Shown piece by piece: positions 41,203 to 58,557 of a stretch of 58,619 nt of DNA. The stretch is taken from positions 1-58,619 of the forward strand of contig JAFGGM010000071.1 of assembly GCA_016930555.1 (NCBI GenBank), in the 5' to 3' direction. The translations under genes and the position numbers were made by a program. The stretch comes from Candidatus Bathyarchaeum sp. (GTDB taxonomy: Archaea; Thermoproteota; Bathyarchaeia; Bathyarchaeales; Bathyarchaeaceae). Numbering within the stretch: the stretch's first letter is position 1; each line of letters opens with the position of its first letter. The notes beneath the pieces were generated by a model. The model worked only from the letters and a program-made list of their open reading frames with translations, was not told the origin of the DNA and ran no database searches.

Positions 41203-41221
41203 AATAGTGTAGGTTAGAACT

Positions 41222-45300: not shown

Positions 45301-45644
45301 AGAATACTGCTGAGGTGCTGCGGAACGAGGGAGTAAACCAGATTTCTGTGTTGCATAAGGTCAGGGAAAAAGGTCAGACTCCCAACATTGTTGATTTTCT
45401 TCAGGAAGGCAAAATCGATTTGGTAATTAACATACCTATGCCTAACCATCTGGTCGCCTTCTCGGAGGTTCTGAAGGACGAATACACAATACGCAGATTA
45501 GCCATAGAATTCAACATCCCAGTTGTAACAAATCTTCAGTTGGCATCAGCATTAACCAAGTTGCTGGAACAACAGGAAGCAAACAAGTTTGACATTCGCT
45601 CCTTAAACGAGTATATGGATAGCCTGCCACGGAAATTCTGGTAA
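42351..45644 (+). CDS. carB: carbamoyl-phosphate synthase large subunit
   Basis: KKVIVLGSGAIKIGEAAEFDYSGSQ. Two ATP-grasp halves (second: KVIVLGAGVFRIGSSVEFDWC). C-terminal MGS-like domain. No ATG start; TTG 42351 or CTG 42369. The track start 42258 is an extension into carA. Confidence 0.92.
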   Translation: MWRRNKLPKFKWIKKVIVLGSGAIKIGEAAEFDYSGSQCLKALREEGIETVLVNPNIATIQTDPRLAGKVYLLPVTPEFVEEVIVKERPDAIMLSFGGQTALNCGVQLAKSGVLEKYGVKVLGTPVQTIEDTEDRELFRRSMIKADVGIAKSKVASSLKEALEVGREIGYPVIVRVAYTLGGKGSGVAHNEDELSDIVCRALGMSMISQVLIEEYLGHWKEVEYEVMRDYDDNCIIVCNMENFDPMGVHTGDSIVVAPSQTLSNREYHILRSASIKAIRSLGVIGECNIQWALDTKSEEIRAIEVNARLSRSSALASKATGYPIAYIAAKLCIGYTLPELQNKVTHITTACFEPALDYLVVKYPRWDLQKFRNVNRHIGPQMKSVGEVMGIGRCFEEALQKAIRMLDIGKLGLVCNPDEDEPETLETLEDALAHPTDQRLYIIVKALKQGMSIENIYELSGVDPFFLHKIQNAINMQEMLSSISQQDSRFLEILREAKRIGFSDKQIAVCRSTDEFAIRKIRKEANIVPAVKQIDTLAAEWPAKTNYLYLTYGGTEDDIEFSSSNMKVIVLGAGVFRIGSSVEFDWCGVNTIWALKKNGVDEAIMVNYNPETVSTDYDMSDKLYFEELTLERILDIYDKEQAFGVIASVGGQIPNNLALKLSNQGVDLLGTSGESIDQAEDRAKFSALLDQLGIPQPEWRDLTRTSDIKKFAQKVGYPVLIRPSYVLSGSAMRVAYTETELADYLKLAAKVSRDHPAVISKFIENAKEVEVDGVYDGEDNIIGAIIEHVENAGVHSGDATMGIPSLTLDSDVLRTVQDYTHKIVEALEIRGPYNIQYLVKDGVTYVIECNLRASRSMPYVSKTRGVNMIELATLSMLGKKFKDSGFTELPAITHFGVKVPQFSFMRLSGADPVLGVEMLSTGEVACLGENFQDALSKAMQSAEFKMPPEGGSVLITVGGKKLKEQIVPIGRALRNMGFKIFATKNTAEVLRNEGVNQISVLHKVREKGQTPNIVDFLQEGKIDLVINIPMPNHLVAFSEVLKDEYTIRRLAIEFNIPVVTNLQLASALTKLLEQQEANKFDIRSLNEYMDSLPRKFW

Positions 45645-46951: not shown

Positions 46952-47713
46952 TTAAGCAAAGCCAACCACCTCCCCAAATACTTCTTCAAGATTAACTGCA
47001 TTGAATTTCTTTTTAAGTTCGTCTGGGGAACCTTGAGCAACAACTTTGCCCTTGTTAACTAGCGCCACGCGGTCGCAGAGATACTCCACTTCCAGCATGT
47101 TGTGGCTTGAAAGAAGAATGGTTACTTTATGTTCTTGTGCGTAACGTTTTATGATTGTACGAACATGAACTGAATGAAGCACATCCAAGCCGCTGTTAGG
47201 CTCATCTAGTATTGCCAACTTAGGTTTCGTCATTAGTGCTCTGGCAACCAGAAGGCGGCGTTTCATTCCTTTGCTGTAGCCCTTCACTTTATCTTTGAGG
47301 CGGTCTCCTAAACCAGAAATTTCAGAAGCTGCATCAACCAGTTTTCCTATGGCTGCTTTGTCGTTGGTTCTGAAGCTTGCCATAAACTTGAGGTACTCTA
47401 GGCCTGAAAGGTTTTTGTAGGCTCCAGCCTCTTCTGGAAGGTAGCTGATCATGTTACGGACTTCTGCTGCCTCGTCAACCACGTCGTGACCAAAAACGGT
47501 TACAGTGCCTGAAGTAGGCAATAGCAATGTTGATGTGATTCTGAGGGCTGTTGTTTTTCCTGCCCCGTTCAATCCGATTAAGCCGAAGATTTCCCCCTCT
47601 TTTATTGTAAAGTTTAAGCCGTCAAGAGCTGTGACTGACCCAAAATCTTTAACTAGATTTTTTGCTTCAACCGCAACACTCACAGAAAAATCTCCCACCC
47701 TTTTTGATTGCAT
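46952..47713 (-). CDS. ABC transporter ATP-binding protein
   Basis: 253 aa. Walker A GLNGAGKTT, signature-like YSKGMKRRL, Walker B LAILDEPNSGLD, H-loop SSHNM. Confidence 0.92.
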   Translation of the reverse strand: MQSKRVGDFSVSVAVEAKNLVKDFGSVTALDGLNFTIKEGEIFGLIGLNGAGKTTALRITSTLLLPTSGTVTVFGHDVVDEAAEVRNMISYLPEEAGAYKNLSGLEYLKFMASFRTNDKAAIGKLVDAASEISGLGDRLKDKVKGYSKGMKRRLLVARALMTKPKLAILDEPNSGLDVLHSVHVRTIIKRYAQEHKVTILLSSHNMLEVEYLCDRVALVNKGKVVAQGSPDELKKKFNAVNLEEVFGEVVGFA

Positions 47714-48270
47714 TAGAGGAGCATCTTTAATAAATCTGCTTTGGTTACGATGCCTACAACTGTTCCCTTCTTCGAAATCATAACCGCGGAATACACCTGC
47801 AGGAGGCTCGAAATCAGGGGTAACGGAGCGTCTTCTCCAACCAACGGAAAAGCTTCCTCCATGACCTCGCCTACGGAACGCTTGGAAATCTGGTTCAAGT
47901 CTTTGCCTGCCGAAACCTTTTCGATAATAGTCTTCTCTGATATGCTACCAACAGGGTGTACTCCATCAAAGATTGGAAGCTGAGAATAGCCATAATCTGC
48001 CATAGTTTGAACCGCCTGTGAGACAAGATCATTCTTCTGAATTCCAATAACCTTACTGTGCAGCACCTCATCGGCGCGAACTTCTTTTTCTGTTTGCAGT
48101 CGCTCCAGTGCATCAAATATTGCTTTAACTTTGGTGTAGGAGGGGTCAATTTTGTGGGATTCTAGTTTTGCGATTAGAGACTGGCTTACTCCTGCTAGCC
48201 TGGCAAGCTTTTGCTGGGTTAGTCCAAGAATTTTTCGTTTTTTGGCAACTTCTTTTAGTGAAGGTAGCAT
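47713..48270 (-). CDS. XRE-type HTH + CBS-pair transcriptional regulator
   Basis: 185 aa. HTH LTQQKLARLAGVSQSLIAKLESHKIDP followed by two CBS motifs. TAATG overlap with the ABC ATPase gene. Confidence 0.85.
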   Translation of the reverse strand: MLPSLKEVAKKRKILGLTQQKLARLAGVSQSLIAKLESHKIDPSYTKVKAIFDALERLQTEKEVRADEVLHSKVIGIQKNDLVSQAVQTMADYGYSQLPIFDGVHPVGSISEKTIIEKVSAGKDLNQISKRSVGEVMEEAFPLVGEDAPLPLISSLLQVYSAVMISKKGTVVGIVTKADLLKMLL

Positions 48271-48392
48271 AATCTGATTTTTGAAGCTCGGATTTATATT
48301 CCTTTTGGAATAATTATTTCAGTAAAATATTAAAATGGTAATGACGTTTGCTATGTCTCATAACAATAAGTGTGTTATAGGAGACTACGGAA

Positions 48393-49901
48393 ATGGCAGC
48401 CTCAAAAGAAGACAATAGGCGGACAATCGCGGAAATCAACCACAAAATCAAAACTGGCGACGTCCAGGTTGTAACCGCCGAAGAAATGAAAAAATTAGTG
48501 GAAAGCAGCGGCGTAGAAGTCGCATACAAAGAAGTTGATGTAGTTACTACAGGAACCTTCGGAGCCATGTGCTCATCAGGCGCCATAATAAACGTTGGGC
48601 ACTCAGACCCTCCCATCAAAATCCAGAAAGCATGGATAAACGATGTTGAGGTCAGTCACCCAGGTGCCGCAGTTGACCTGTATATAGGCGCCTCTCAAAT
48701 GTCCGGAACCAACCCCTTCGAGTATGGAGGCGGACACGTCATTGAAGATCTGATTGCAGGCAAAGAAGTTGAATTAAGAGCAATTTCCTATGGAACCGAC
48801 TGTTATCCCAGAACCAAACTAGATACCGTCCTCACAAAAGATGACCTGAACCAGTTTTATCTACTGAATTTCCGCAACTGTTACCAACGTTATGTCTGCG
48901 CCACCAACAGTCGCGACGAAATAATCTACACCTACATGGGTAAGCTGCTGCCAAGATTCAGAAACGCCACCTACTCTGGAGCAGGCGCCCTTAATCCTCT
49001 AATGAACGACCCTGACTACGAAACCATCGGTATAGGAACCCGCATATTCCTAGGTGGCGCACAAGGCTACGTCCTCGGAGAAGGCACTCAGCATGACCCA
49101 ACTAACAGATTTGGAACGCTGATGGTTCGAGGAGACTGCAAACAGATGAGCCCCGAATTCATTAGCGGAGGTGCCTTCACCAAGTATGGCACAAGCCTCT
49201 ATATTGGCATGGGCATTCCTATTCCTATACTAAATAAAGGGTTAGCGAAGAAGACAGCTTTGCGGGACGAAGAAATCTTCACGAACATTGTTGACTATGG
49301 GGTTCCTCGCCGGGAACGACCTAAGCTGGGCAAAGTCAGTTATGCCACCTTGAAGTCAGGTGAAGTGACAATCAATGACAGAAAAGTCAAAGTCAGTTCC
49401 ATGTCCAGTTTGAAGAAGGCAAAGAAGATTGCTGGGATATTGAAGTCATGGATCGAACACGGCACATTTTATCTGTCTGCTCCCTCTGAGACGTTGCCTA
49501 CAAACTCTGTATGTAATCCAATGAAGCAAGCTGGCGAGATAACCTTTGTTAGCACTGTGGCTCAGGCAGCTGTGACTTGCAGCGTCGGCGAAGACATCAA
49601 GGCTGTTGCCAAGCGAATCATAAACAAATCAGTGAATCATGTGGTTGTTACAGATGAAAGCGGAGCTCTCAAGGGCATAGTGACTTCTTGGGACCTCACG
49701 CGAGCAATCGCTGAAGGAAAAAGTAAGCTTGCTGACATCATCACAAAGAAGGTGTTTACTACAAGACCTGATGTATCACTGGAAGAGGCTTCAAGGAAGC
49801 TGGCACAGCATCACATATCTGCGTTGCCTGTGATAGACAGGGACAAGAAGGTTGTGGGTCTCATAACCTCTGAAGATATAGCCAAGTTGAGGGGAAGGTG
49901 A
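48393..49901 (+). CDS. homocysteine biosynthesis protein, COG1900 (DUF39) domain + CBS pair (L-aspartate-semialdehyde sulfurtransferase, MA1821/MJ0100-like)
   Basis: 502 aa. VDVVTTGTFGAMCSSGA and GGGHVIEDL are typical of COG1900. C-terminal CBS pair (VVVTDESGALKGIVTSWDL; ISALPVIDRDKKVVGLITSEDI). Confidence 0.85.
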   Translation: MAASKEDNRRTIAEINHKIKTGDVQVVTAEEMKKLVESSGVEVAYKEVDVVTTGTFGAMCSSGAIINVGHSDPPIKIQKAWINDVEVSHPGAAVDLYIGASQMSGTNPFEYGGGHVIEDLIAGKEVELRAISYGTDCYPRTKLDTVLTKDDLNQFYLLNFRNCYQRYVCATNSRDEIIYTYMGKLLPRFRNATYSGAGALNPLMNDPDYETIGIGTRIFLGGAQGYVLGEGTQHDPTNRFGTLMVRGDCKQMSPEFISGGAFTKYGTSLYIGMGIPIPILNKGLAKKTALRDEEIFTNIVDYGVPRRERPKLGKVSYATLKSGEVTINDRKVKVSSMSSLKKAKKIAGILKSWIEHGTFYLSAPSETLPTNSVCNPMKQAGEITFVSTVAQAAVTCSVGEDIKAVAKRIINKSVNHVVVTDESGALKGIVTSWDLTRAIAEGKSKLADIITKKVFTTRPDVSLEEASRKLAQHHISALPVIDRDKKVVGLITSEDIAKLRGR

Positions 49902-51030: not shown

Positions 51031-51326
51031 TTCTTTCTACCACAAAATTTTTGGTTGTATTTTCTACTCAATTCTTTGCTGTGGGAGAAATTGTTCAAAA
51101 AGCGGTTTACTAGGATTGCTCTTATGCGTGCATATAATTACTATTAGAGCCACAATAAACCCCTGATTTACGAACAAGAAAAGCATTTTTGTGAAGAAAT
51201 GTTAACCTACTAGACAATTCTCCAGTCAATTTTTTTAAGTAACAAACCTTTTCTGTTCTTCTATATACATTATTGTTTGGTGGTTACCCTTTGCCCAATT
51301 CGAGAGAGGAAGAGCCCTACTCGCTT

Positions 51327-52607
51327 ATGTTTTCATCTTTAAGTCATCCCGCTCGCCGCAAAATTCTTCGGCTACTAGCAGAGAAGCCTAGGAACTTCTC
51401 AACAATCCTAGAGACTTTGGGAATTTCCAGTTCCCATCTGACTTATCACCTTGAAAACCTTGGAGACCTTCTAACAAAACTGGATGATGGAACATACAAG
51501 CTCTCTCCTTTAGGAGACGCGGCTGTGTGTACGATGAGGGGTGTAGAAGAGCCGCCTGAAGCTCAGAAAAAGCACATGAAAATGCCCCTGAGTTGGAAAG
51601 CCATTTTTGCGGTTCTGATGATTGGCATCGTCATTTCTTCGGCTGTATCCGCTGCACAATATATGTCATTTAATCAGCTTTCCTCAGACTATCAGCAAAT
51701 ATCCAAAGATTATGAGCAGCTTCAAATGGATTATGAACAGTTATCCGTTGAGAATCAGCGGCTTATGTCTTGGGGCACTTCCCCAACTCCAGCGGTTGCT
51801 TTTCTAAGAGATGTAGTTCAGCTGGATTTGACAAAATATTCTTCAACTCTAGAAAGTGCCACTGTGGAGTACCGTTGGGATTTGGGCGGAATCGTTGAGG
51901 AGATTGTGAAGTGGTCTCTTACCTATGAGAGCAGCAAGCTAGATGTAACTTTCATATTTAGAAATTCTAGGCTTTACAGCTACTCTTTGAAAGTGACTGA
52001 GGGTTCACCATACTACTTTGAGCTACCGCCAATTCGACTAATTGATGCAGCTAAAGGTATTCTTGAAAGGTACCAGCAATATTCTGGAACATCCCATTTG
52101 GATCCGATGATAAGCATGCTGGAGGCAGTTAATACTGATGGAAATTTTGCACAAACAACGGGCAACATTAAGCTTATCCGAAGTGGAACAACAGAAACTA
52201 AAATCGAGTTCCAGTATACAACAAATAACATCGACTATCAAGCAAAAACCGTGGTCTTAACCTTTGACGAATATGGATTTTTGGACTCCCTCAGTGACAG
52301 CTGGCTTCTTTTCAATATAGGTAGCACACAAGTCACCATATCAAAGGAAGAAGCAATAGATATTGCAATGGAATACGCACGGAACTGCACATGGACAGCA
52401 AACGGCGAAACGATAAGCAATTTCATCTTAGAGAAAGATGATGCAACAGCAGAATTATGGCCCCATGTGAGAGATGAACCCCTAACGTTGATACCTTATT
52501 GGTACGTCACTATCCCTCTGGATGGAATTTATCCTGAACAGGTTACCTTTATTGCAGTAGGATTATGGGCTGACACAGGAAAATTCAGTAGCTGCCAACC
52601 CAAATAG
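51327..52607 (+). CDS. membrane-anchored ArsR-type winged-HTH protein with large extracytoplasmic domain
   Basis: wHTH LSHPARRKILRLLAEKPRNFSTILETLGISSSHLTYHLENL. Single TM WKAIFAVLMIGIVISSAVSAA. Coiled DYQQISKDYEQLQMDYEQL repeat. About 290-aa C-terminal domain. ATG 51327 (GAGAGAGGAAGAG upstream, TATA at 51261) preferred over TTG 51273. Confidence 0.7.
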   Translation: MFSSLSHPARRKILRLLAEKPRNFSTILETLGISSSHLTYHLENLGDLLTKLDDGTYKLSPLGDAAVCTMRGVEEPPEAQKKHMKMPLSWKAIFAVLMIGIVISSAVSAAQYMSFNQLSSDYQQISKDYEQLQMDYEQLSVENQRLMSWGTSPTPAVAFLRDVVQLDLTKYSSTLESATVEYRWDLGGIVEEIVKWSLTYESSKLDVTFIFRNSRLYSYSLKVTEGSPYYFELPPIRLIDAAKGILERYQQYSGTSHLDPMISMLEAVNTDGNFAQTTGNIKLIRSGTTETKIEFQYTTNNIDYQAKTVVLTFDEYGFLDSLSDSWLLFNIGSTQVTISKEEAIDIAMEYARNCTWTANGETISNFILEKDDATAELWPHVRDEPLTLIPYWYVTIPLDGIYPEQVTFIAVGLWADTGKFSSCQPK

Positions 52608-52624: not shown

Positions 52625-53371
52625 CTACTTTTCCCTCTTCTTCATCATTCGTATTAGCAGAACAGCTATAATTGCAACAGTCGCTACCACTGCTATTATT
52701 TTGGCATAAAATACAATATTATCTATCTCCGAATTGTCGCTTGCGTTTGGGTCAATCCAACGATTTGTTGCAGATATCATAACCTTCTGTGCAATTTCAG
52801 TACCATTCAAAACTTGTTCTGATTGCAGGAAAATTCCTGTAGGCTTGTCCCAGTACACTTTTTTTTCGGTAAATGTTGCGTAAAAAGCGGTTCTTGTTCC
52901 GCCGGCATAAGTACTTTCTTCTGTTCCAGCAATTGTTATGTTGCCGTAGTCTTCGTGATAGAACACGTCAGCGTATTTGAGCCCTGCGGGAACAACTAGG
53001 AGATTTAGAACCCCCGATTTAAGGTCATAAGTGTGATTACTTGTGGTGGTTGTTCCGTTTAACATCTCATATATCATTTTACCTGTTATGCTTGTTCCTT
53101 GAACGTCTGTGATTTGGAATTTGAACCAGTTTGCGTATTCCTCTGGAGGGTCACCACTTCCCACATATGTTACGTTGTATTCCATCCAGTCTCCAGCTTT
53201 CACTCCCACTGTAACATTCGCATTAACTGTGCTCCCTGTAAGCGCCACTTTAGCTGCTGTGTCAGGAGTTAATTCCACAACTGTTGGCGAAGCATCCACA
53301 AGTGCTGTGGTAGTTAAAATCAGAACTAAAAATGCAACCAATGAGGTATTAGTAACATGTGTTTTCATCAA
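52625..53371 (-). CDS. secreted, C-terminally anchored surface protein rich in N-glycosylation sequons
   Basis: 248 aa. Signal peptide SLVAFLVLILTTTALVDA. At least nine N-x-S/T sequons (NVT, NGT, NHT, NIT, NAS ...). C-terminal TM IIAVVATVAIIAVLLI + RMMKKREK. Confidence 0.65.
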   Translation of the reverse strand: MMKTHVTNTSLVAFLVLILTTTALVDASPTVVELTPDTAAKVALTGSTVNANVTVGVKAGDWMEYNVTYVGSGDPPEEYANWFKFQITDVQGTSITGKMIYEMLNGTTTTSNHTYDLKSGVLNLLVVPAGLKYADVFYHEDYGNITIAGTEESTYAGGTRTAFYATFTEKKVYWDKPTGIFLQSEQVLNGTEIAQKVMISATNRWIDPNASDNSEIDNIVFYAKIIAVVATVAIIAVLLIRMMKKREK

Positions 53372-53509
53372 TTATTCCTCTGAAGGGTAGGTGTTGTTTT
53401 AATGGTTTAGACCTGATATTTACCATTTTTTGTATTCCATCACGTTCTGGCTAGGTCCTTTTTGGCACGTTTCAATTTGTTACGCTATTATTATATCTTG
53501 TTTTATGTT

Positions 53510-53522
53510 ACAGATTTTTATA
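53510..53522 (+). promoter_or_regulatory. putative BRE/TATA element upstream of the HTH-NrdD-like gene
   Basis: ACAGATTTTTATA 58 nt upstream of ATG 53580. A near-identical ACAGAATTTTATA occurs at 55966. Confidence 0.35.
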
Positions 53523-53579
53523 GGATACTTTAATTTTTTAAACTAGACAACTGTAATAGCAGGTAACGGAGACTCGACA

Positions 53580-55805
53580 ATGCCAAGACGGAGACGAAAA
53601 TCAGGTTTAAAGGTTCTAAAGGCAGCATCTTCCTCTTTGCGCATGCAACTTCTAATCACTCTCGTAGAGAAAGGACCCCAATCCTACACTGACCTAATGA
53701 AGGTTCTGAAACTTAATCCAAGCAGAGATGCAGGAAGATTTGCCTACCACCTCAAATATCTTCTAAGTGCTGACCTCATAGAACCCGATGTAGACAACAA
53801 AGAATATCGTCTCACAGATCTCGGCAAAACAATGATTAACTTCACAGAAGATATCCAGCAGCAGTTCCTTCAAAGAAAAAAAATTTTTGTACGAACCAGC
53901 CGCCTTGCAATGGAAGAATTTGACAGAAGTAAAATCGCTGAAGCCCTCGTGAAGGAAGCAAGTGTTCCAGTCTTTCAAGCCCAAAAGATCGCTCGAGAAA
54001 CAGAAAAACGTCTCCTAGAATTCAAAACAAAATACTTGACCGCACCTCTTATCCGAGAAATGGTCAACGCAATCCTTGTAGAAAAGGGTCTGGAAGAGTA
54101 CCGCCACAAACTCACTCGTCTGGGGCTCCCAGTTTACGACGTTAATCAGCTGATAGACTCAACTGGTGCCAAAGCACAGGGTACAGAGGCTATCCATAAG
54201 GCAGCTGCGGACGCGGTTATGGAAGAGTACACCCTTCTCAACGTTCTTCCCCGAGATATTGCTGACGCACACCTTTCTGGAGGTCTTCACCTCAAGCACC
54301 TTGGCACATGGGTTTTGAAGCCTGGCCAGTTCATGCATGATCTCCGCTTTTTCCTTCAAAATGGACTTAGCCGCAGAAATATGAATCTTCAGGAGCCCTC
54401 TTATTCTCCACCTAAAAGCCTTGAAGCGGCGCTGATAACTGCCTCTAATGTCCTGAAGATTGCTGATGTAGAAACTTCTGGAGAACAGACCATAGACTTC
54501 TTCAACATCTTTTTGGCGCCTTTCAGCCAAAATCTTTCAGAGGAACGAGTCAGGGAAGCCTTGAAGCTTTTTGTCATTAACTTAAGTCATCCCCTCTCAT
54601 GTGGAAGTTCAGTTGGGGCTTCATTGGGCATAGAATTTGTTGTTCCCGACTTTCTGAAAGAAAAGGAAGCCATTGGACCAGAAGGAAAAGTTGTTGGCTG
54701 CTACGGAGACTTTGCTGATGAAAGTCGCCGCCTAGCTTCACTCATAATCGAAGTCATGTTTGCGGATGACAGAAATAAACCCGTTTTCAATCCGCGTCTG
54801 ATAATTAAGATACGGTCTGAAGTTCTCAAAGATCCTGACTGCGTCAATCTTCTTTTTGAATCCCATAAGCTTGCAGCTGAAACAGGTCTTCCCTACTTTG
54901 CTAACCTCTGCTCCCCTGAACAGGCAAATGCATCCTACACCTCAACAGGTTTCAGATTAGCTTCTGACTGGAGAAACGACTGGGAATTGGATACCATGCA
55001 GACAGGAAGCGTGGACACTGTGATAATAAACCTCCCTAGAGTCATGTATGATGCAGGAGGCAAAGAAGCTAACTTTTTCCGGGTCTTGGATGATCAGCTA
55101 GAGATGGCGTTGCGGGCGTTGGACATCAAATACCGCACAATAAAACAGCGAGAAAGAGAACAGATGCTGCCCTTCCTGATGCAAAAAACTGACGGCGACC
55201 AATACTTTAGAATTGAAAACGCTGCTCGCCTAGTTAGCTTTGTTGGCTTAAACGAAACCATCCAAGCCTTCTTTGACAAGCCCCTGAAACTGGATGGCGA
55301 AACATTGGATTTTGCGAAAAAAACAGTAGCCTACCTCTCTAGCGAAATTAAGCGGTATTCTAAGAAGCCTGAGACCCGAGCTGCCTTGGCTATGGTGCCT
55401 GCTTCAGATGCTGCAAAACGGCTTGCAGAGTTGGATGCAGAAAGTTATGGGTGGGCAAAGGTTCGTGCCCGAGGCACCCGAGAGAAGCCCTTTTACACGG
55501 ACTTGGTTGCTTTGCCTCTAAACTTTGACGCTTCTTGGAAAGACCGTGTGAGGGTTGAGGAACGATTCCACAGTTTGACTACTGGAGGTCACTTAGCAGT
55601 ATTTCCCCTTGCTGGTGAGACGCAGAAGCCTGACGAGTTGCTGTCTATAACTCGGGAGATTGCTGGTAACTATGGCATTGGGTTGTACGCCTTTAACAAG
55701 AACATCGCATATTGTGCGAGTTGCCAGCAGATTTCCTATGGAGAATTAGAGAAATGCCCGTCTTGCGGATCAGTTAATATGCTTCAGTCCTTCAGTCGCG
55801 TATAA
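53580..55805 (+). CDS. winged-HTH + ATP-cone + catalytically degenerate class III RNR (NrdD-like) fusion protein
   Basis: 741 aa. wHTH LRMQLLITLVEKGPQSYTDLMKVL..YHLKYLLSADLIE..YRLTDLG. ATP-cone FVRTSRLAMEEFDRSKIAEALV. NrdD core colinear with ORF 56362-58557 (IADAHLSGGLHLKHL, FNIFLAPF, INLPRVMY, CASC..CPSCG). Ends SFSRV-stop, before the glycyl-radical motif. Confidence 0.8.
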   Translation: MPRRRRKSGLKVLKAASSSLRMQLLITLVEKGPQSYTDLMKVLKLNPSRDAGRFAYHLKYLLSADLIEPDVDNKEYRLTDLGKTMINFTEDIQQQFLQRKKIFVRTSRLAMEEFDRSKIAEALVKEASVPVFQAQKIARETEKRLLEFKTKYLTAPLIREMVNAILVEKGLEEYRHKLTRLGLPVYDVNQLIDSTGAKAQGTEAIHKAAADAVMEEYTLLNVLPRDIADAHLSGGLHLKHLGTWVLKPGQFMHDLRFFLQNGLSRRNMNLQEPSYSPPKSLEAALITASNVLKIADVETSGEQTIDFFNIFLAPFSQNLSEERVREALKLFVINLSHPLSCGSSVGASLGIEFVVPDFLKEKEAIGPEGKVVGCYGDFADESRRLASLIIEVMFADDRNKPVFNPRLIIKIRSEVLKDPDCVNLLFESHKLAAETGLPYFANLCSPEQANASYTSTGFRLASDWRNDWELDTMQTGSVDTVIINLPRVMYDAGGKEANFFRVLDDQLEMALRALDIKYRTIKQREREQMLPFLMQKTDGDQYFRIENAARLVSFVGLNETIQAFFDKPLKLDGETLDFAKKTVAYLSSEIKRYSKKPETRAALAMVPASDAAKRLAELDAESYGWAKVRARGTREKPFYTDLVALPLNFDASWKDRVRVEERFHSLTTGGHLAVFPLAGETQKPDELLSITREIAGNYGIGLYAFNKNIAYCASCQQISYGELEKCPSCGSVNMLQSFSRV

Positions 55806-55816
55806 GCAAAAAGGTT

Positions 55817-55830
55817 GTTTTTTGTGTTTT
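55817..55830 (+). terminator. T-rich tract downstream of the HTH-NrdD-like gene
   Basis: GTTTTTTGTGTTTT begins 12 nt after the stop. Confidence 0.3.
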
Positions 55831-55965
55831 AACTGCTCTGTCTGCTTAACTCCTATTTATAGTAAAAACACATCTTAGTCACAACTGTTTCATAGGTTTT
55901 TGTTGCTGGCTTATATTTGCCAAATATGGCTGGAAAGCTAAATGTCAATTTGATTGAGGTCTTAT

Positions 55966-55978
55966 ACAGAATTTTATA
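55966..55978 (+). promoter_or_regulatory. putative BRE/TATA element upstream of nrdH-like/nrdD
   Basis: ACAGAATTTTATA 78 nt upstream of ATG 56056. Confidence 0.35.
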
Positions 55979-56055
55979 CCATTAAACCTAAAAAATTAAA
56001 TAAGTATGCCTATACCTAACATCTTATCTCGTCGATTAAAAGAGAGGTAATTTTC

Positions 56056-56361
56056 ATGGGCTTTTCAGAAGATTTCGGCAGCACTTCCGCTCATTCCGCA
56101 GCAAACGACGTAGTCGTCTACACAAGCAGCGGATGCCCCAGATGTGACATGCTGAAAAAGTGGTTAAAAAACAAAAATACAACTTTTGTAGAAAAAAATC
56201 TAGAAGACTCCGATGTAATGACTGACCTAGTCATGAGAAACTTTGTTGTCATGTCTGCGCCAGCCCTAGAAGTTGATGGAATGGTGTACACAGACAGCCA
56301 AATATTCGAAAACAACGGTCTAATCAATCCAAACTTTACAAAGAAATTTGAGGCAATGTAA
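56056..56361 (+). CDS. nrdH: glutaredoxin-like protein (NrdH-like redoxin)
   Basis: 101 aa. Thioredoxin fold with the CPRC redox motif (VVVYTSSGCPRCDMLKKWL) and ..PALEVDG.. Abuts nrdD (TAAATG). Confidence 0.8.
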   Translation: MGFSEDFGSTSAHSAANDVVVYTSSGCPRCDMLKKWLKNKNTTFVEKNLEDSDVMTDLVMRNFVVMSAPALEVDGMVYTDSQIFENNGLINPNFTKKFEAM

Positions 56362-58557
56362 ATGACTGAAATTATTCAAAAGCTTCGCCCCATGGTTAGA
56401 GGAACAGACGGTTTCATGGTGCCATGGAGCAGAAACGAAATCGTTGAGCAACTACTGACTGAAACAAAACTGGCAGAAGAATTCTATGACACAAAGGCCA
56501 TAAGCAGACAAGATGCTGAGGATATCGCCTATGAGGTAGAAATGAAAATTTTTGACCTGAATCTCAAGTTCATCAGTGGACCCCTGATAAGGGAACTAGT
56601 AAACAATATCCTATTAGCTAGGTCCGCTCAGAGACCTGAATTTGCTCTTTACAGGAACATTTTGACTCGAGTAGGTGCCCCAGTCTATGATGCCTACAAA
56701 ATTGATATGGGTACAGGCTATAAGGCAAAAGAAAACGCGAACCTTCAGCCTAATCCTGAAACAGCCCACAAAAGAAAAGCAGATTGGGTTTCAGGGGAAG
56801 AATACCTTCTGCTTATGCCCCCAAAAATCGCCGACGCCCATCTGTCCGGAGATCTCCATATTCACGACCTTGAATACTTCGGAACTCGACCCTTCTGCCA
56901 GGACTGGGATCTCCGCTACTTCCTATACTATGGACTAATGCCTGACGGTCTTGGAACGCGAACAAGCATTGCGGGTCCAGCTAAGCATGCTGAGGTGGCG
57001 ATTCTTCACACAGCCAAAATACTGGCTTCTGCTCAAACTAACTTTGCTGGCGGCGAGGGCTTTTACAACTTTCTGATCTTCCTTGCGCCGTACGTTAGAG
57101 GCTTGGGTTATGAAAAAATCAGGCAGCTTATGCAGATGATGTTCTTCGAGTACACTCAAGCTTACGTGGCTAGAGGAGGGCAGCTGGTTTTCAGTAATAT
57201 TCAGGTGCAGCCTGGAGTTCCTGACTTGTGGAAAAATGTTCCTGTTGTAATGCATGGGCATGTTGGACCTGATGTATATGGAACTTACGAGGATGAAGTC
57301 CGCACCATGTTCAAAGCCCTTTACGACGTGGCTCTCAAAGGCGATTATTGGGGGAAACCCTTCAACTTTCCAAAACTCGAAAACTCTTTGAGTCCAGAGT
57401 TCTTCAAGCCAGAATATGATGATGTATGGATTGACGTTCACAAAGCTGTAGCCAAATTCGGGCAACCATACTTCGACAACCTGATGCCTGCCTATAGGGG
57501 TTACGGCAAAGGGGTTTCCTGTTACCAGTGTTGCGCCTACTGTTTTGTTGAAACTCCTGAAGACAGCGAAGACTTTGATGAGAAACTCAATTTCGACAAT
57601 GGGAAACACTTCACTATGGGAAGCTGGCAGGTTGCGAGCGTGAATCTTCCAAGAATGGCATATAAAGCCAACGGAGACGATGAGATGCTCTTTGAGGAAA
57701 GCCGCAGACTCATGGATTCGGCTCTTGATGTGTTCAAAGCCAAAAAGAAGTGGATGGACCTTGCCATCAAGAACCAACGGATACCCTTCGCCACCCAGCG
57801 GCCATTGGACCCAAGAACTCATGAGAAGGGAACACAAGCCGTGGACTTTGATCAGCTAACCTTCACTATTGGTCTTGTGGGTGGAAACGAGATGGCACAG
57901 CATCATACAGGATACCAGCTCCACGAAAATCCTGAAGCAGTCAAGACTCTGATTAAGGTGATTCTTGAGATGCAGAAATACAAGAAAGAACTGGAGTCAC
58001 GGAGCGGCTACAAAATTGCCTTAGCTAGGACGCCAGCCGAGTCTACAGCCCAACGGTTTGCCATTGCTGACCTCCTCACTGACCGTTATCGGGACTATGC
58101 GGAGAAGCTTGTCCGTGGAGATGTGGAGCAAGCCAAGTTCCTTATTAATCAAAGAAAGAAGGATGTTCCAGTCTATTACAGCAACGGAACCCACGTTGAT
58201 GTGAAAGCCAAGATGGGTGTCTTTGACAAGATAAACCTTGAGCAGAAGTTCTTCCCACTCCTGAATGGAGGGAACATGCTGCATATCTGGTTGGGTGACG
58301 CTTCTCCAGATCCTGAAGCTCTCTATAAGCTGACCAAACGGATTACCACACAAAGCAACATTGGCTACTTTGCCTACACCAAAGATTTGACTGTCTGCAG
58401 CGCCTGCGGAAAAGTCACTTCTCCCATCCTCGAGAACTGCCCCTACTGTGGCTCCAACAAAGTGGAATGGTGGTCCAGAGTTACAGGCTACTATCAGGCA
58501 GTATCTGGGTGGAACAATGGCAAGAAACAGGAACTTCTAGACAGATACAGAACCTAA
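56362..58557 (+). CDS. nrdD: anaerobic ribonucleoside-triphosphate reductase (class III RNR, NrdD)
   Basis: 731 aa. N-terminal ATP-cone. IADAHLSGDLHIHDLEY. Cys-rich finger-loop VSCYQCCAYCF. C-terminal zinc site CSACG..CPYCG followed by glycyl-radical motif WWSRVTGYYQAVSGWNNGKKQE. Confidence 0.92.
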   Translation: MTEIIQKLRPMVRGTDGFMVPWSRNEIVEQLLTETKLAEEFYDTKAISRQDAEDIAYEVEMKIFDLNLKFISGPLIRELVNNILLARSAQRPEFALYRNILTRVGAPVYDAYKIDMGTGYKAKENANLQPNPETAHKRKADWVSGEEYLLLMPPKIADAHLSGDLHIHDLEYFGTRPFCQDWDLRYFLYYGLMPDGLGTRTSIAGPAKHAEVAILHTAKILASAQTNFAGGEGFYNFLIFLAPYVRGLGYEKIRQLMQMMFFEYTQAYVARGGQLVFSNIQVQPGVPDLWKNVPVVMHGHVGPDVYGTYEDEVRTMFKALYDVALKGDYWGKPFNFPKLENSLSPEFFKPEYDDVWIDVHKAVAKFGQPYFDNLMPAYRGYGKGVSCYQCCAYCFVETPEDSEDFDEKLNFDNGKHFTMGSWQVASVNLPRMAYKANGDDEMLFEESRRLMDSALDVFKAKKKWMDLAIKNQRIPFATQRPLDPRTHEKGTQAVDFDQLTFTIGLVGGNEMAQHHTGYQLHENPEAVKTLIKVILEMQKYKKELESRSGYKIALARTPAESTAQRFAIADLLTDRYRDYAEKLVRGDVEQAKFLINQRKKDVPVYYSNGTHVDVKAKMGVFDKINLEQKFFPLLNGGNMLHIWLGDASPDPEALYKLTKRITTQSNIGYFAYTKDLTVCSACGKVTSPILENCPYCGSNKVEWWSRVTGYYQAVSGWNNGKKQELLDRYRT

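What the first reader, a model, noticed from the sequence alone, without database searches (positions are those of the whole stretch)
53580..55805. wHTH + ATP-cone + catalytically dead NrdD: candidate RNR-derived nucleotide-sensing regulator upstream of nrdH-nrdD
**Similarity to the real NrdD.** ORF 53580-55805 aligns colinearly over about 600 aa with the bona fide class III RNR 2.8 kb downstream. Pairs, this ORF first:
- IADAHLSGGLHLKHL / IADAHLSGDLHIHDL
- FNIFLAPF / FLIFLAPY
- INLPRVMY / VNLPRMAY
- ALAMVPASDAAKRLAELD / ALARTPAESTAQRFAIAD
- The C-terminal CxxC…CxxC zinc site is retained.

**Lost catalytic features.**
- The Cys of RPFCQDWDLRYF is Gln (KPGQFMHDLRFF).
- The Cys-rich finger-loop VSCYQCCAYCF is replaced by ASYTSTGFRLA.
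- The protein terminates …SFSRV-TAA (stop 55803-55805). The paralog continues …WWSRVTGYYQAVSGWNNGK, so the radical glycine segment is missing.
- The downstream in-frame codons (AKRLFFVF-stop) do not restore it.

**Added and retained parts.** About 95 aa of winged helix-turn-helix are added at the N-terminus. The ATP-cone, the allosteric (d)ATP sensor of RNRs and of the bacterial repressor NrdR, is kept.

**Inference.** I read this as a pseudo-enzyme repurposed as a DNA-binding, nucleotide-pool-sensing regulator of the adjacent nrdH-nrdD genes. That would be functionally analogous to NrdR but of independent origin. I am not aware of such a fusion being characterised.
Basis: partly seen in the sequence, partly recalled or inferred. 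Interest (0 to 1): 0.8.

Follow-up and report, generated by a model that had tools for sequence, protein, structure and literature searches.

The report
DNA-binding regulator built from dead RNR
This gene encodes a conserved archaeal protein that joins a DNA-binding domain to a ribonucleotide reductase that has lost all its catalytic parts, and it is most likely an undescribed transcription factor controlling the genes that supply DNA and pyrimidine building blocks.

Summary
ORF 53580-55805 encodes a 741-aa protein with three parts: an ArsR-type winged helix (aa 1-99), an ATP-cone-like domain (aa 102-182), and a class III RNR (NrdD) barrel with Zn ribbon (aa 200-741).

Every catalytic hallmark is missing: both active-site Cys, the HxHD and NxN substrate motifs, the PAE loop and the glycyl-radical motif.

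It is not an error or a pseudogene:
- dN/dS is 0.06-0.12.
- More than 120 near-identical-length homologues exist.
- The family spans Bathyarchaeia, Asgard lineages, Culexarchaeia and Nitrososphaerota.
- Among 150 representatives, the wHTH motif and the glycyl-radical motif never co-occur (64 versus 36).

The gene sits upstream of RNR genes (nrdH-nrdD; class II nrdJ in Hecatellales) and/or of divergent pyrB/pyrI in 63 of 79 loci. An imperfect 16-bp dyad recurs in those RNR promoters.

Best reading (confidence about 0.6): a nucleotide-metabolism transcription factor, analogous to NrdR but of independent origin.

Caveats:
- The cone lacks the canonical Lys-Arg pair.
- The specificity-site apparatus is degraded.
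- The most ancient linkage is to pyrBI, not nrd.
- The dyad module also precedes a few tRNA genes.
- DNA binding and the ligand are untested.

No description was found in the literature searched.

The parts
53580..55805 (+). Gene for the wHTH / ATP-cone-like / pseudo-NrdD protein (741 aa plus TAA)
   Evidence: ORF list. Pfam domains. More than 120 homologue clusters of 740-770 aa. dN/dS 0.06-0.12.
53580..53876 (+). ArsR/SmtB-type winged helix-turn-helix, aa 1-99. It has a basic N-terminal arm (MPRRRRKSG), the recognition helix 'DAGRFAYHLKYL', a wing at aa 67-78 and helix alpha5 at aa 80-99.
   Evidence: Pfam DUF7347 at 13-87. HTH_5 or HTH_20 in 18-19 of 28 family members. AF2 topology H-H-H-H-E-E-H with pLDDT 86-94. 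Foldseek TM 0.69-0.76 to SmtB, HlyU, CzrA, CadC and BigR. dN/dS 0.00-0.03 in nine of the ten pairs scored; the tenth, L003-L004, gave 0.106 on very few substitutions (dS 0.13).
53883..54125 (+). ATP-cone-like domain, aa 102-182. This is the most conserved part of the family. It includes 'VRTSRL' in place of the canonical 'VIKRDG', and 'EEYRHKLTRLG'.
   Evidence: Pfam PF03477, 26.8 bits against a cut-off of 25.8. 28 of 28 family members match. Foldseek hits to NrdR and NrdD cones. 36% of columns are at least 90% conserved, against 4% in the core. The Lys-Arg pair is absent.
54177..55802 (+). Catalytically dead NrdD ten-stranded barrel plus C-terminal Zn ribbon, aa 200-741
   Evidence: Pfam NRDD, 273 bits. 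Foldseek TM(target) 0.71-0.79 to T4, T. maritima and P. copri NrdD. Below the NCBIfam NrdD equivalog cut-off, 297.7 against 326.35. Loss of NrdD-invariant residues.
54285..54344 (+). Degenerate substrate-phosphate motif LHLKHL (real NrdD: LHIHDL, the HxHD motif), followed by KPGQFMHDL. In the latter, Gln250 (54327-54329) replaces the bottom-face Cys.
   Evidence: The role of the HxHD motif is taken from PMC11226230.
54939..54965 (+). Finger-loop remnant TSTGFRLAS. Phe458 (54951-54953) stands at the position of the thiyl-radical Cys.
   Evidence: HMMER alignment to 9d3x 'APMGCRSFL'. There is no Cys in this loop. 2 of 40 family members have Cys in that column.
55713..55769 (+). Retained Cys4 Zn ribbon (C712, C715, C726, C729)
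   Evidence: Invariant in 40 of 40 family members and in real NrdDs.
55803..55817 (+). Stop codon TAA and the in-frame relic 'AKRL' of the former C-terminal tail
   Evidence: tblastn of sister-clade tails: FSRVSAKHL aligns to FSRV*AKRL.
53509..53548 (.). Conserved promoter block upstream of the gene. It holds a Box B-like element TACAGATTTTTATAG (53509-53523) and GATACTTTAATTTTTTAAACTAGAC (53524-53548), which contains the 12-mer TAAAAAATTAAA on the minus strand.
   Evidence: Alignment of 22 orthologous upstream regions. The 'ACTyTAATTTTTTAAAC' element is conserved down to clades at 46% protein identity. Motif searches.
55940..56002 (+). nrdH-nrdD promoter module. Box A is AAATGTCAATTT (55940-55951). 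Box B is the imperfect dyad ATACAGAATTTTATAC (55964-55979) and is the candidate operator. Box C is CTAAAAAATTAAATA (55988-56002) and is the probable BRE/TATA.
   Evidence: Alignment of 21 orthologous upstream regions. Conservation across clades at 48-94% identity. Box B regex: 30 of 43 hits in 1.33 Mb lie in RNR promoters. The same arrangement precedes nrdJ in Hecatellales. Caveat: the module also precedes four tRNA genes.
56056..56361 (+). nrdH-like glutaredoxin or thioredoxin-fold gene, the probable reductant for the RNR
   Evidence: Pfam Glutaredoxin, E = 1.9e-8. Conserved between the dead gene and nrdD in all close loci.
56362..58557 (+). Bona fide class III RNR (NrdD) with C179, C390-C391, TPAES, the Zn ribbon and RVTGY
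   Evidence: Pfam NRDD, 491 bits. TIGR02487, 533 bits against a cut-off of 326. Alignment to T. maritima and P. copri NrdD including Cys125 and the radical Gly. Motif coordinates.

Best explanation
The gene encodes a one-component transcription factor.

- **DNA-binding head.** This is an ArsR/SmtB-type winged helix.
- **Sensor and oligomerisation body.** This is an inactivated class III ribonucleotide reductase: the cone domain, the ten-stranded barrel and the Zn ribbon.
- **Proposed mechanism.** The protein dimerises like NrdD and like ArsR proteins. The dimer binds dyad-symmetric DNA in promoters of nucleotide-supply genes. The targets here are the nrdH-nrdD operon immediately downstream (candidate site Box B, 55964-55979), probably its own promoter, and possibly the pyrB/pyrI pair that lies just beyond nrdD in close relatives.
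- **Signal.** DNA affinity or oligomeric state changes when a nucleotide, most plausibly an adenine nucleotide, binds the highly conserved cone domain. Transcription of dNTP and pyrimidine synthesis genes would thereby follow the nucleotide pool.
- **Relation to NrdR.** It would work like bacterial NrdR but arose independently, by duplication of an archaeal nrdD, loss of radical chemistry and substrate binding, and gain of a wHTH.

**Shown:** the architecture, the loss of catalytic residues, the purifying selection, the phyletic breadth, the gene linkage and the conserved promoter elements.

**Inferred:** DNA binding, the identity of the operator, the ligand, and the sign of regulation.
For: **Architecture and loss of catalysis.**
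- The tri-domain architecture is present in all 28 diverse members tested.
- The wHTH fold is confidently modelled and matches ArsR/SmtB repressors.
- The barrel matches NrdD structures.
- All catalytic and substrate-binding motifs are lost family-wide, while structural motifs and the Zn ribbon are kept.
- Among 150 representatives clustered at 50% identity, 64 carry the wHTH recognition-helix motif and none of those has R[IV][TSC]GY. 36 have that glycyl-radical motif and none of those has the wHTH motif.

**Selection.**
- dN/dS is 0.06-0.12 overall.
- The wHTH (0.00-0.03 in nine of ten pairs; one outlier at 0.106) and the cone (0.01-0.065) are the most constrained parts.
- The cone is the most conserved region across phyla.

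**Gene linkage.**
- The dead gene is followed by nrdH and nrdD in every close locus with room.
- Across 79 unique loci with at least 4 kb downstream, 63 have nrdD and/or pyrB downstream, and none has them upstream.
- pyrB(-)/pyrI(+) linkage holds in Atabeyarchaeia, Baldrarchaeota, Odinarchaeota, Helarchaeota, Culexarchaeia and Nitrososphaerota.
- In Hecatellales the neighbour is a class II RNR.

**Promoter elements.**
- A conserved 16-bp imperfect dyad, rTAyA-N6-TATAC (Box B), lies upstream of a BRE/TATA-like box in nrdH or nrdD promoters of clades at 48-94% identity, and in the Hecatellales nrdJ promoters.
- 30 of 43 regex hits in 1.33 Mb of loci are in RNR promoters.
- 17 of 22 exact Box B+C hits in 596 Gb of GTDB genomes are in Bathyarchaeia.
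- A Box B-like element with 2 mismatches sits in the gene's own promoter.

**Context from the literature.**
- NrdR is rare in archaea (PMC9110341), so an alternative regulator is expected.
- Enzyme-derived wHTH regulators have archaeal precedents, RbkR (PMC5397151) and GfcR (PMC10838023).
Against: - There is no experimental evidence of DNA binding or nucleotide binding.
- The cone lacks the canonical Lys-Arg pair that contacts the triphosphates in P. copri NrdD (Lys7, Arg8; PMC11226230). It has invariant Thr106-Ser107 instead. Its Pfam score is barely above threshold in the window protein.
- Loop 2 is deleted, and the region that aligns with the P. copri specificity-site beta-hairpin is poorly conserved in the family alignment. 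NrdD's other allosteric site is therefore probably gone.
- The complete Box A-B-C module also precedes tRNA-Ser, tRNA-Leu, tRNA-Gly and tRNA-Pro genes on four metagenomic contigs. One further genomic copy has no recognisable gene downstream.
- Box C resembles the ordinary tRNA promoter consensus AAAnnTTAAATA.
- Box A is the coding sequence for the C-terminal 'YMLIS' in long-form relatives.
- The elements could therefore be a strong-promoter module bound by another factor.
- 16 of 79 loci show no nrd or pyr neighbour.
- Dead NrdDs with two cones and no wHTH also exist, so the pseudo-enzyme body may have a function that does not need DNA binding.
Confidence: 0.6

Rival explanations
1. It is a transcription factor, but its conserved target is pyrimidine biosynthesis (pyrB/pyrI, perhaps carAB). 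In this reading the position next to nrdH-nrdD in this clade is a secondary insertion of the RNR operon into an older 'dead-nrdD / pyrB / pyrI' cluster. The ligand could then be a pyrimidine nucleotide or another pathway metabolite.
For: - pyrB(-)/pyrI(+) immediately downstream is the linkage shared by Asgard, Culexarchaeia, Nitrososphaerota and most Bathyarchaeia.
- 47 of 79 loci have pyrB downstream, against 32 with nrdD.
- Where both occur, nrdH-nrdD lies between the dead gene and pyrB.
- carA and carB lie 8-12 kb upstream in the window.
Against: - Box B is absent from the pyrB-pyrI intergenic regions.
- No motif shared convincingly between the dead gene's promoter and the pyr promoters was found.
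- Two different RNR classes (nrdD and nrdJ) have been recruited next to the gene, with the same promoter architecture. This points to an RNR link.
- The sensor body descends from an RNR, whose cone in characterised enzymes senses ATP and dATP.
Confidence: 0.15
2. It is a non-catalytic partner of an enzyme rather than a classical transcription factor. One version is a pseudo-subunit that heterodimerises with the active NrdD, as the inactive Rnr4 pairs with Rnr2 in yeast (from my own knowledge). Another is a nucleotide-sensing subunit that modulates RNR or ATCase activity. In either version the wHTH would tether the complex to DNA or serve as a protein-interaction module.
For: - The barrel and the helix carrying 'IADAHLSG.LH' are well conserved with the paralogue. 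By the sequence alignment to T4 NrdD and my recollection of that structure, this helix lies near the NrdD dimer interface. That placement was not checked on the model.
- The core is under purifying selection, dN/dS 0.07-0.15.
- Dead NrdDs exist in which a second ATP-cone replaces the wHTH. They cannot act by binding DNA through a wHTH.
Against: - The family occurs next to class II nrdJ in Hecatellales and in many loci with no nrdD nearby. A partner specific to NrdD is therefore unlikely.
- The wHTH is the most strongly constrained part. It has the hallmarks of DNA-binding ArsR proteins, including a basic N-terminal arm and an invariant recognition helix.
Confidence: 0.1
3. It is a DNA-binding regulator in which the dead RNR body is only an oligomerisation scaffold and senses no nucleotide. 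Regulation would then respond to another signal, for example redox or metal at the Zn ribbon.
For: - The canonical cone Lys-Arg pair, loop 2, and the active-site nucleotide contacts are all lost.
- The Cys4 ribbon is invariant.
- ArsR/SmtB relatives are typically metal or redox sensors.
Against: - The cone is the most conserved segment of the protein across phyla, with invariant Arg105, Arg108, Arg116, Arg159, Arg175 and Arg180. That is hard to explain for a passive linker.
- The linkage to nucleotide-metabolism genes fits a nucleotide signal.
Confidence: 0.1
4. It is still an enzyme: either an RNR using an unconventional radical route or a separate 'spare-part' glycyl-radical protein, or a new activity in the old barrel.
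For: - The barrel is conserved.
- A family-specific motif, SDW..DWELDT.RTG, follows the finger loop.
- Database annotations call it 'anaerobic ribonucleoside-triphosphate reductase'.
Against: - The thiyl Cys, the bottom Cys, HxHD, the NxN flap, the PAE loop and the glycyl-radical motif are all absent.
- It falls below the NCBIfam equivalog cut-off.
- Those annotations are automatic.
Confidence: 0.03
5. It is a decaying pseudogene or an assembly or sequencing artefact of a real nrdD.
For: The premature stop relative to NrdD, with an in-frame relic downstream.
Against: - The same stop position and length (740-742 aa) recur in more than 100 independent clusters from many studies and in 22 GTDB genomes.
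- dN/dS is 0.06-0.12.
- The radical Gly was already replaced in the full-length sister clades.
Confidence: 0.01

Closest known systems
NrdR (bacterial RNR repressor: Zn ribbon plus ATP-cone)
   Same: - It combines a DNA-binding module with an ATP-cone-type domain.
- It is genomically tied to RNR genes.
- Dyad-like boxes occur in RNR promoters.
- The expected logic is that the nucleotide pool sets transcription of RNR genes.
- Foldseek pairs the cone of this protein with NrdR cones.
   Different: - The DNA-binding domain is an ArsR-type wHTH, not a Zn ribbon.
- The protein is five times larger and carries an entire dead NrdD barrel.
- The cone lacks the Lys-Arg pair.
- The boxes differ from NrdR boxes.
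- The origin is a duplicated archaeal nrdD, not an NrdR ancestor.
- NrdR is rare in archaea (PMC9110341).
Class III ribonucleotide reductase NrdD (T4, T. maritima, P. copri, S. thermophilus structures; the window's own NrdD at 56362-58557)
   Same: - The fold matches: TM 0.71-0.79 normalised to the target.
- The N-terminal cone, the Zn ribbon and many structural motifs are shared: AH..G..H, FLAP, NLPR, GLxE, GGH.
- It is 27% identical to the neighbouring paralogue.
   Different: - It has no glycyl-radical motif, no thiyl Cys, no bottom Cys, no HxHD, no NxN flap, no loop 2 and no PAE Glu.
- It has an extra N-terminal wHTH.
- It falls below the NCBIfam NrdD cut-off.
ArsR/SmtB family repressors (SmtB, CzrA, CadC, HlyU, BigR)
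   Same: - The winged-helix fold has the same topology, alpha1 to alpha5.
- The rmsd to these structures is about 2-2.6 A over about 90 residues.
- Family members hit Pfam HTH_5 and HTH_20 and NCBIfam HTH_metalloreg.
   Different: ArsR proteins are proteins of about 100-120 aa that sense metals or redox within the wHTH itself. Here the wHTH is the head of a 741-aa protein whose putative sensor is an RNR relic.
Archaeal enzyme-derived one-component regulators: RbkR (wHTH plus riboflavin kinase, PMC5397151) and GfcR (PMC10838023)
   Same: The design principle is the same: a wHTH fused to, or derived alongside, a metabolic enzyme domain that supplies ligand recognition, with the gene next to the pathway it controls (abstracts only).
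   Different: - The enzyme ancestor is different (a radical RNR).
- RbkR is described as bifunctional in its title and abstract, so it keeps catalytic activity. This protein has lost all catalytic residues.
- The regulon is nucleotide supply.

Membership tests
Class III RNR catalytic subunit NrdD (PF13597 / TIGR02487) | Homology to, and fold of, the NrdD ten-stranded alpha/beta barrel | tested here: met
   Pfam NRDD, 273 bits. Foldseek TM(target) 0.71-0.79 to 1h79, 8p2s and 4u3e.
Class III RNR catalytic subunit NrdD (PF13597 / TIGR02487) | Score above the curated equivalog cut-off (TIGR02487, 326.35 bits) | tested here: not met
   297.7 bits. The neighbouring real NrdD scores 533.4.
Class III RNR catalytic subunit NrdD (PF13597 / TIGR02487) | C-terminal glycyl-radical motif RVxGY | tested here: not met
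   The protein ends at ...SFSRV. None of the 64 wHTH-bearing representatives has the motif.
Class III RNR catalytic subunit NrdD (PF13597 / TIGR02487) | Thiyl-radical Cys on the finger loop, and the bottom-face Cys | tested here: not met
   Phe458 and Gln250 stand at these positions. The bottom Cys is kept in 0 of 40 family members and the finger-loop Cys in 2 of 40.
Class III RNR catalytic subunit NrdD (PF13597 / TIGR02487) | Substrate-binding elements: HxHD, NxN flap, and the PAE loop with its Glu | tested here: not met
   HLKH, a deletion, and PAS respectively. The roles of these elements are taken from PMC11226230.
Class III RNR catalytic subunit NrdD (PF13597 / TIGR02487) | C-terminal Cys4 Zn ribbon | tested here: met
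   C712, C715, C726 and C729 are invariant in 40 of 40.
Class III RNR catalytic subunit NrdD (PF13597 / TIGR02487) | Ribonucleotide reduction after activation by NrdG and SAM | not testable with these tools
   This needs an enzyme assay and EPR.
NrdR | N-terminal Zn-ribbon DNA-binding domain | tested here: not met
   The N-terminus is an ArsR-type wHTH.
NrdR | ATP-cone with nucleotide-binding residues | tested here: inconclusive
   The profile match is just above threshold. The fold matches NrdR cones. The Lys-Arg pair is replaced by Thr-Ser.
NrdR | Binds paired boxes in RNR promoters in a nucleotide-dependent way | not testable with these tools
   Only candidate boxes were found: Box B in the nrdH, nrdD and nrdJ promoters.
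ArsR/SmtB wHTH regulators | Fold of alpha1-alpha2-alpha3-alphaR-beta1-beta2-alpha5 | tested here: met
   AF2 secondary structure and pLDDT 86-94. Foldseek TM 0.69-0.76. HTH_5 or HTH_20 in 18-19 of 28 relatives. The window protein's own best wHTH hit, DUF7347, is 25 bits against a cut-off of 27.6.
ArsR/SmtB wHTH regulators | Sequence-specific binding of a dimer to a dyad operator | not testable with these tools
   This needs EMSA or DAP-seq.
ATP-cone domain (PF03477) | Profile match at or above the gathering score | tested here: met
   26.8 bits against 25.8 for the window protein. 28 of 28 family members match at E <= 1e-3, with a best E-value of 7.7e-10.
ATP-cone domain (PF03477) | Basic Lys-Arg pair in the N-terminal beta-hairpin that contacts the triphosphate | tested here: not met
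   'VRTSRL': Thr106 and Ser107 are nearly invariant, flanked by invariant Arg105 and nearly invariant Arg108. The reference contacts, Lys7 and Arg8, are from PMC11226230.
ATP-cone domain (PF03477) | Binds ATP or dATP | not testable with these tools
   This needs a binding assay.

The most novel reading that the evidence does not exclude
A widespread archaeal (TACK plus Asgard) master regulator of DNA-precursor and pyrimidine supply evolved from a class III ribonucleotide reductase. The ancestor discarded radical chemistry, kept its allosteric cone as the nucleotide sensor and acquired a winged helix. On this reading it is the archaeal functional counterpart of bacterial NrdR. It would also be the first case of an RNR catalytic subunit repurposed as a transcription factor, and the RNR promoter dyad (Box B) would be its operator.
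Probability: 0.4. Interest if true: 0.85.

Novelty: new variant of a known kind. Interest (0 to 1): 0.75.

Why it matters
**A gap in archaeal regulation.** How archaea regulate RNR expression and dNTP supply is largely unknown. NrdR, the bacterial solution, is rare in archaea (PMC9110341). This family offers a concrete, testable candidate. The hosts include Bathyarchaeia, among them the enrichment-cultured Bathyarchaeum tardum with a complete genome (CP122380), and several Asgard lineages.

**A new kind of pseudo-enzyme.** It would add a striking case to the pseudo-enzyme literature. A radical enzyme's catalytic subunit, stripped of every catalytic element but kept under strong purifying selection, would be reused as the body of a DNA-binding protein.

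**Annotation.** Public annotations call these proteins 'anaerobic ribonucleoside-triphosphate reductase'. That over-counts class III RNRs in archaeal metabolic reconstructions and in oxygen-tolerance inferences.

**A tool for cone biochemistry.** The non-canonical cone (Thr-Ser instead of Lys-Arg) is shared in modified form with the neighbouring active NrdD ('VRGTDG'). It may reveal a different mode of ligand recognition by ATP-cones.

Tried and rejected
1. **The shared 12-mer as an operator.** TAAAAAATTAAA occurs twice in the window against 0.03 expected, at both promoters. I downgraded it. Ordinary tRNA promoters in these genomes read AAAnnTTAAATA, so the 12-mer is probably core BRE/TATA. 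In many relatives the copy upstream of the dead gene lies in a bidirectional region shared with a divergent tRNA-Pro.
2. **Box A as an independent regulatory box.** In long-form relatives it encodes the C-terminal 'YMLIS'. Its conservation there is at least partly a coding constraint.
3. **Box B as RNR-exclusive.** Rejected. The full A-B-C module also precedes four tRNA genes. One further copy has no recognisable gene downstream. The downstream RNA fold of that copy is not significant, z = -0.89, and Rfam finds nothing.
4. **Retention of NrdD's specificity site as the sensor.** Not supported. Loop 2 is deleted, and the region aligning with the P. copri specificity-site beta-hairpin is poorly conserved in the family alignment.
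5. **An evolutionary intermediate: an active NrdD carrying a wHTH.** Not found. Active NrdDs with N-terminal extensions have two ATP-cones.
6. **A motif shared between the pyrB-pyrI intergenic region and the dead gene's promoter.** Only a weak 'ACTCT + T-rich' resemblance was seen, which is not convincing.
7. **Literature.** Ten searches for the architecture or for a dead NrdD found nothing relevant. The library is not exhaustive.
8. **Whether genomes with the dead gene lack any active nrdD.** I could not test this.

Full report
**1.

ORF 53580-55805 (+) is an intact 741-codon reading frame with its own AT-rich promoter region. A T-rich stretch follows the TAA. BLASTP against the NrdD encoded at 56362-58557 gives a colinear alignment: 27% identity, E = 6e-71, residues 95-741 against 3-707.

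Pfam finds three domains:
- NRDD at 202-741 (273 bits).
- ATP-cone at 104-174 (26.8 bits, cut-off 25.8).
- The archaeal winged-helix family DUF7347 at 13-87 (25 bits, cut-off 27.6).

The downstream paralogue is a bona fide class III RNR. It scores 533 bits against TIGR02487, whose cut-off is 326. It aligns to T. maritima and P. copri NrdD through Cys125 and the radical Gly. A glutaredoxin-fold nrdH precedes it.

**2.
- The bottom-face Cys (real C179) is Gln250.
- The finger loop reads TSTGFRLAS, with Phe458 aligned to the thiyl Cys of 'MGCRSF'.
- The chain stops two residues before the radical Gly.

I compared columns that are invariant in 14 active NrdDs with 40 members of the dead family. 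Residue roles come from the P. copri NrdD paper (PMC11226230). The comparison shows further losses:
- the NxN flap (deleted);
- the HxHD triphosphate motif (now HLKH);
- loop 2 (deleted);
- the PAE loop Glu (now PAS);
- the YxNS motif;
- the T-G-Y of the radical loop.

Structural motifs survive: AH..G..H, FLAP, NLPR, GLxE, GGH. The Cys4 ribbon also survives. The protein falls below the NCBIfam NrdD equivalog cut-off, 297.7 against 326.35.

**3. It is a real, selected gene and a large family.**

More than 120 clusters at 90% identity share 72-100% identity with the query. Those above about 75% identity are almost all 740-742 aa, with a minority shorter, mostly 720 aa; the 72-74% group is about 770 aa. 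All named sources are Bathyarchaeia.

An exhaustive HMMER search of 1.84 billion representatives shows a much wider family at 30-50% identity. Among the best 150 representatives:
- 64 have the wHTH recognition-helix motif, and none of these has an R[IV][TSC]GY motif.
- 36 have that motif, and none of these has the wHTH motif.

All 28 diverse members tested hit NRDD, ATP-cone and DUF7347. 18-19 also hit ArsR-type HTH_5 or HTH_20.

Named members and loci come from the following lineages:
- Bathyarchaeia, including Hecatellales;
- Promethearchaeota, Jordarchaeia, Freyarchaeota, Atabeyarchaeia, Baldrarchaeota, Odinarchaeota and Helarchaeota;
- Culexarchaeia;
- Nitrososphaerota.

Public names are either 'anaerobic ribonucleoside-triphosphate reductase' or 'ArsR family transcriptional regulator'.

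Pairwise dN/dS among close orthologues is 0.06-0.12. By region:

| Region | dN/dS |
|---|---|
| wHTH | 0.00-0.03 in nine of ten pairs; one outlier at 0.106 (L003-L004, dS 0.13) |
| cone | 0.01-0.065 |
| barrel | 0.07-0.15 |

Across phyla the cone is the most conserved segment. 36% of its columns are at least 90% conserved, against 4% in the barrel.

**4. The stop codon is a fixed nonsense mutation, not an error.**

Most family members keep a C-terminal tail that is a relic of the glycyl-radical domain, with the Gly replaced. An example is YSRSLAKYLPLRWW against YSRITGYYQ..W. The sister clade of the window reads ...FSRVSAKHLPSS.... The window reads ...FSRV*AKRL in frame. The Gly was therefore already Ala before a Ser codon became TAA in the Bathyarchaeum-type clade, and the tail is dispensable there.

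**5. Structure.**

The full-length AF2 model has mean pLDDT 84 and pTM 0.73. Its best PDB matches are NrdD structures, with target-normalised TM 0.71-0.79.

A separate model of aa 1-200 gives pLDDT 86-94 for aa 11-90. Its topology is H-H-H-H-E-E-H. It matches two kinds of structure:
- ArsR/SmtB repressors (SmtB, HlyU, CzrA, CadC, BigR; TM 0.69-0.76, rmsd about 2-2.6 A);
- the cones of NrdR and of S. thermophilus NrdD, for the second half.

The inter-domain linkers have pLDDT below 50, so the relative arrangement of the domains is not predicted.

The cone is non-canonical. The Lys-Arg of 'VIKRDG' contacts the triphosphates in P. copri NrdD. Here it is nearly invariant Thr106-Ser107, flanked by invariant Arg105 and nearly invariant Arg108. 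The active paralogue has 'VRGTDG' at this position and no significant Pfam cone hit.

**6. Gene context.**

In every close locus with room, the order is dead gene, nrdH, nrdD.

Recurrent neighbours in more distant clades turned out to be the catalytic and regulatory chains of aspartate carbamoyltransferase. They are arranged pyrB(-)/pyrI(+) immediately downstream.

Over 79 non-redundant loci with at least 4 kb downstream:

| Downstream neighbour | Loci |
|---|---|
| nrdD and pyrB | 16 |
| nrdD only | 16 |
| pyrB only | 31 |
| neither | 16 |

Neither gene is ever upstream of the dead gene.

The pyrB/pyrI linkage extends to Atabeyarchaeia, Baldrarchaeota, Odinarchaeota, Helarchaeota, Culexarchaeia and Nitrososphaerota. 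It is therefore older than the nrd linkage. Where both occur, nrdH-nrdD lies between the dead gene and pyrB.

In two Hecatellales loci a class II RNR (nrdJ) is the second gene downstream of the dead gene, about 1.1-1.6 kb from its end, with a minus-strand DUF169 gene between them in L143. In the window, carA, carB and argH lie 8-14 kb upstream.

**7. Promoter elements.**

Alignment of orthologous intergenic regions shows invariant blocks.
- Upstream of the dead gene: ...ATACTTTAATTTTTTAAACTA (window 53524-53548).
- Upstream of nrdH: Box A AAATGTCAATTT (55940-55951), Box B ATACAGAATTTTATAC (55964-55979) and Box C CTAAAAAATTAAATA (55988-56002).

The Box A-B-C arrangement is conserved before nrdH or nrdD in clades whose dead-gene products are only 48-65% identical to the window's. 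A closely similar Box B plus Box C precedes nrdJ in Hecatellales.

Box B is an imperfect 16-bp dyad. The best example is GTACAAAATTTTATAC, which is 14 of 16 palindromic.

Specificity of Box B:
- Of 43 matches to rTAyA-N6-TATAs in 1.33 Mb of loci, 30 lie in RNR promoters.
- Of 22 exact Box B+C matches in all GTDB species genomes, 17 are in Bathyarchaeia.
- A Box B-like element with 2 mismatches lies in the gene's own promoter, at 53509-53523.

These are good operator candidates for a dimeric wHTH protein. Four caveats apply:
- Box C resembles ordinary tRNA promoters.
- Box A is coding sequence in long-form relatives.
- The whole module also precedes tRNA-Ser, tRNA-Leu, tRNA-Gly and tRNA-Pro genes on four metagenomic contigs.
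- One further genomic copy has no recognisable gene downstream.

**8. Interpretation.**

The simplest account of four facts together is a transcription factor for nucleotide-supply genes whose sensor and oligomerisation body is an inactivated RNR. The four facts are:
- a strongly constrained DNA-binding head;
- an even more conserved cone;
- a selected but catalytically empty RNR barrel;
- persistent linkage to RNR genes of two classes and to ATCase.

It would work like NrdR, but it fails NrdR's defining features: it has no Zn-ribbon DNA-binding domain and a different origin. It also fails NrdD's catalytic features. I therefore do not file it under either family.

The ligand is the weakest link. 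The active site and loop 2 are gone, which leaves the cone. The cone lacks the canonical phosphate-binding pair.

Rivals that remain open:
- a pyr-centred regulon;
- a non-catalytic enzyme partner, hinted at by the dead NrdDs with two cones and no wHTH;
- a scaffold-only body.

A pseudogene or artefact is excluded.

**9. Novelty.**

Ten full-text searches found no description of a wHTH-NrdD fusion or of a dead NrdD. The large RNR phylogeny paper mentions neither a helix-turn-helix nor inactive members. No NCBIfam model exists for the family.

Enzyme-derived wHTH regulators are known in archaea: RbkR and GfcR. ATP-cone-based RNR regulation is also known (NrdR). I therefore rate this as a new variant of a known kind, but an unusually interesting one. 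It is widespread in TACK and Asgard archaea, it addresses the open question of archaeal RNR regulation, and it exposes a systematic mis-annotation.

Noticed in passing
Proteins P0177, P0186, P0203, P0210 and P0225: This is a second kind of dead NrdD. It has two ATP-cones and no wHTH. It lacks the finger-loop Cys and the glycyl-radical motif. In P0203, P0210 and P0225 the chain ends before the Zn ribbon; P0186 keeps a CxxC...CxxC ribbon and P0177 at least one CxxC (tails). Its taxonomy and gene context are unknown.
   Followed up: partly
L213:2744-2902, L219:6304-6466, L246:40-271, L276:917-1144, and L151:6760-6965: Near-complete copies of the nrdH promoter module (Box A-B-C), including about 20 nt that match the 3' end of the long-form dead gene, sit about 50-120 nt upstream of tRNA-Ser, tRNA-Leu, tRNA-Gly and tRNA-Pro genes. 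In L151 a copy sits upstream of a stretch with no ORF, no tRNA and no Rfam hit. They could be duplicated promoters or a shared regulon.
   Followed up: partly
For example L025:5706-5783, L040:5768-5845, L065:5811-5888, L127:5010-5102, L135:4981-5074: A tRNA-Pro gene lies divergently upstream of the dead-nrdD gene in many Bathyarchaeia, and also in Culexarchaeia and Nitrososphaerota loci. It is usually 150-300 bp upstream in Bathyarchaeia and about 1 kb upstream in the Culexarchaeia and Nitrososphaerota loci. The conserved cluster is therefore tRNA-Pro(-) / dead nrdD(+) / (nrdH nrdD) / pyrB(-) / pyrI(+). The window itself has a membrane-protein gene at that position instead.
   Followed up: no
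For example L093:8351-9872, L104:8486-9950, L040, L065: pyrB and pyrI are transcribed divergently from a short shared intergenic region of about 75-180 bp in these archaea, rather than as a pyrBI operon. Bathyarchaeia share a conserved 'AAATAACTCTTT' block there.
   Followed up: partly
L143:5205-7457 and L122:4563-5813: In Hecatellales the gene near the dead nrdD is a class II RNR (Ribonuc_red_lgN + lgC + TSCPD). In L143 its promoter shows two tandem 'AGTATATTTTT' elements 21 nt apart upstream of a Box C-like TATA.
   Followed up: partly
window 55850-55878: A distal block, 'CCCCTATwTATA..AAAACACATCTTr', about 190 nt upstream of nrdH, is conserved among the truncated-clade loci. It lies in what used to be tail-coding sequence or just beyond it. 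It looks TATA-like and could be a second promoter or a small transcript start.
   Followed up: no
window 51273-52607 (+) and 52625-53371 (-): The gene two upstream encodes another DUF7347/ArsR-type wHTH (aa 19-85) fused to about 350 aa with no Pfam match and a hydrophobic segment. The gene between it and the dead nrdD is a 248-aa predicted membrane or secreted protein with no Pfam match. Both are syntenic only in the closest relatives.
   Followed up: no
Representatives P0160, P0164, P0168, P0174, P0206, P0209, P0222, P0264 and others: Many active NrdD representatives are 1,000-1,700 aa long and match in 2-4 separate stretches, as expected for intein-containing NrdDs. None of the wHTH-bearing dead proteins shows this.
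   Followed up: no
window 39715-45644 and 47713-49901: argH, carA and carB (carbamoyl-phosphate synthase) lie 8-14 kb upstream. A CBS-HTH_3 regulator is divergent from a homocysteine-biosynthesis (HcyBio-CBS) gene. The region is rich in nucleotide and amino-acid precursor genes.
   Followed up: no
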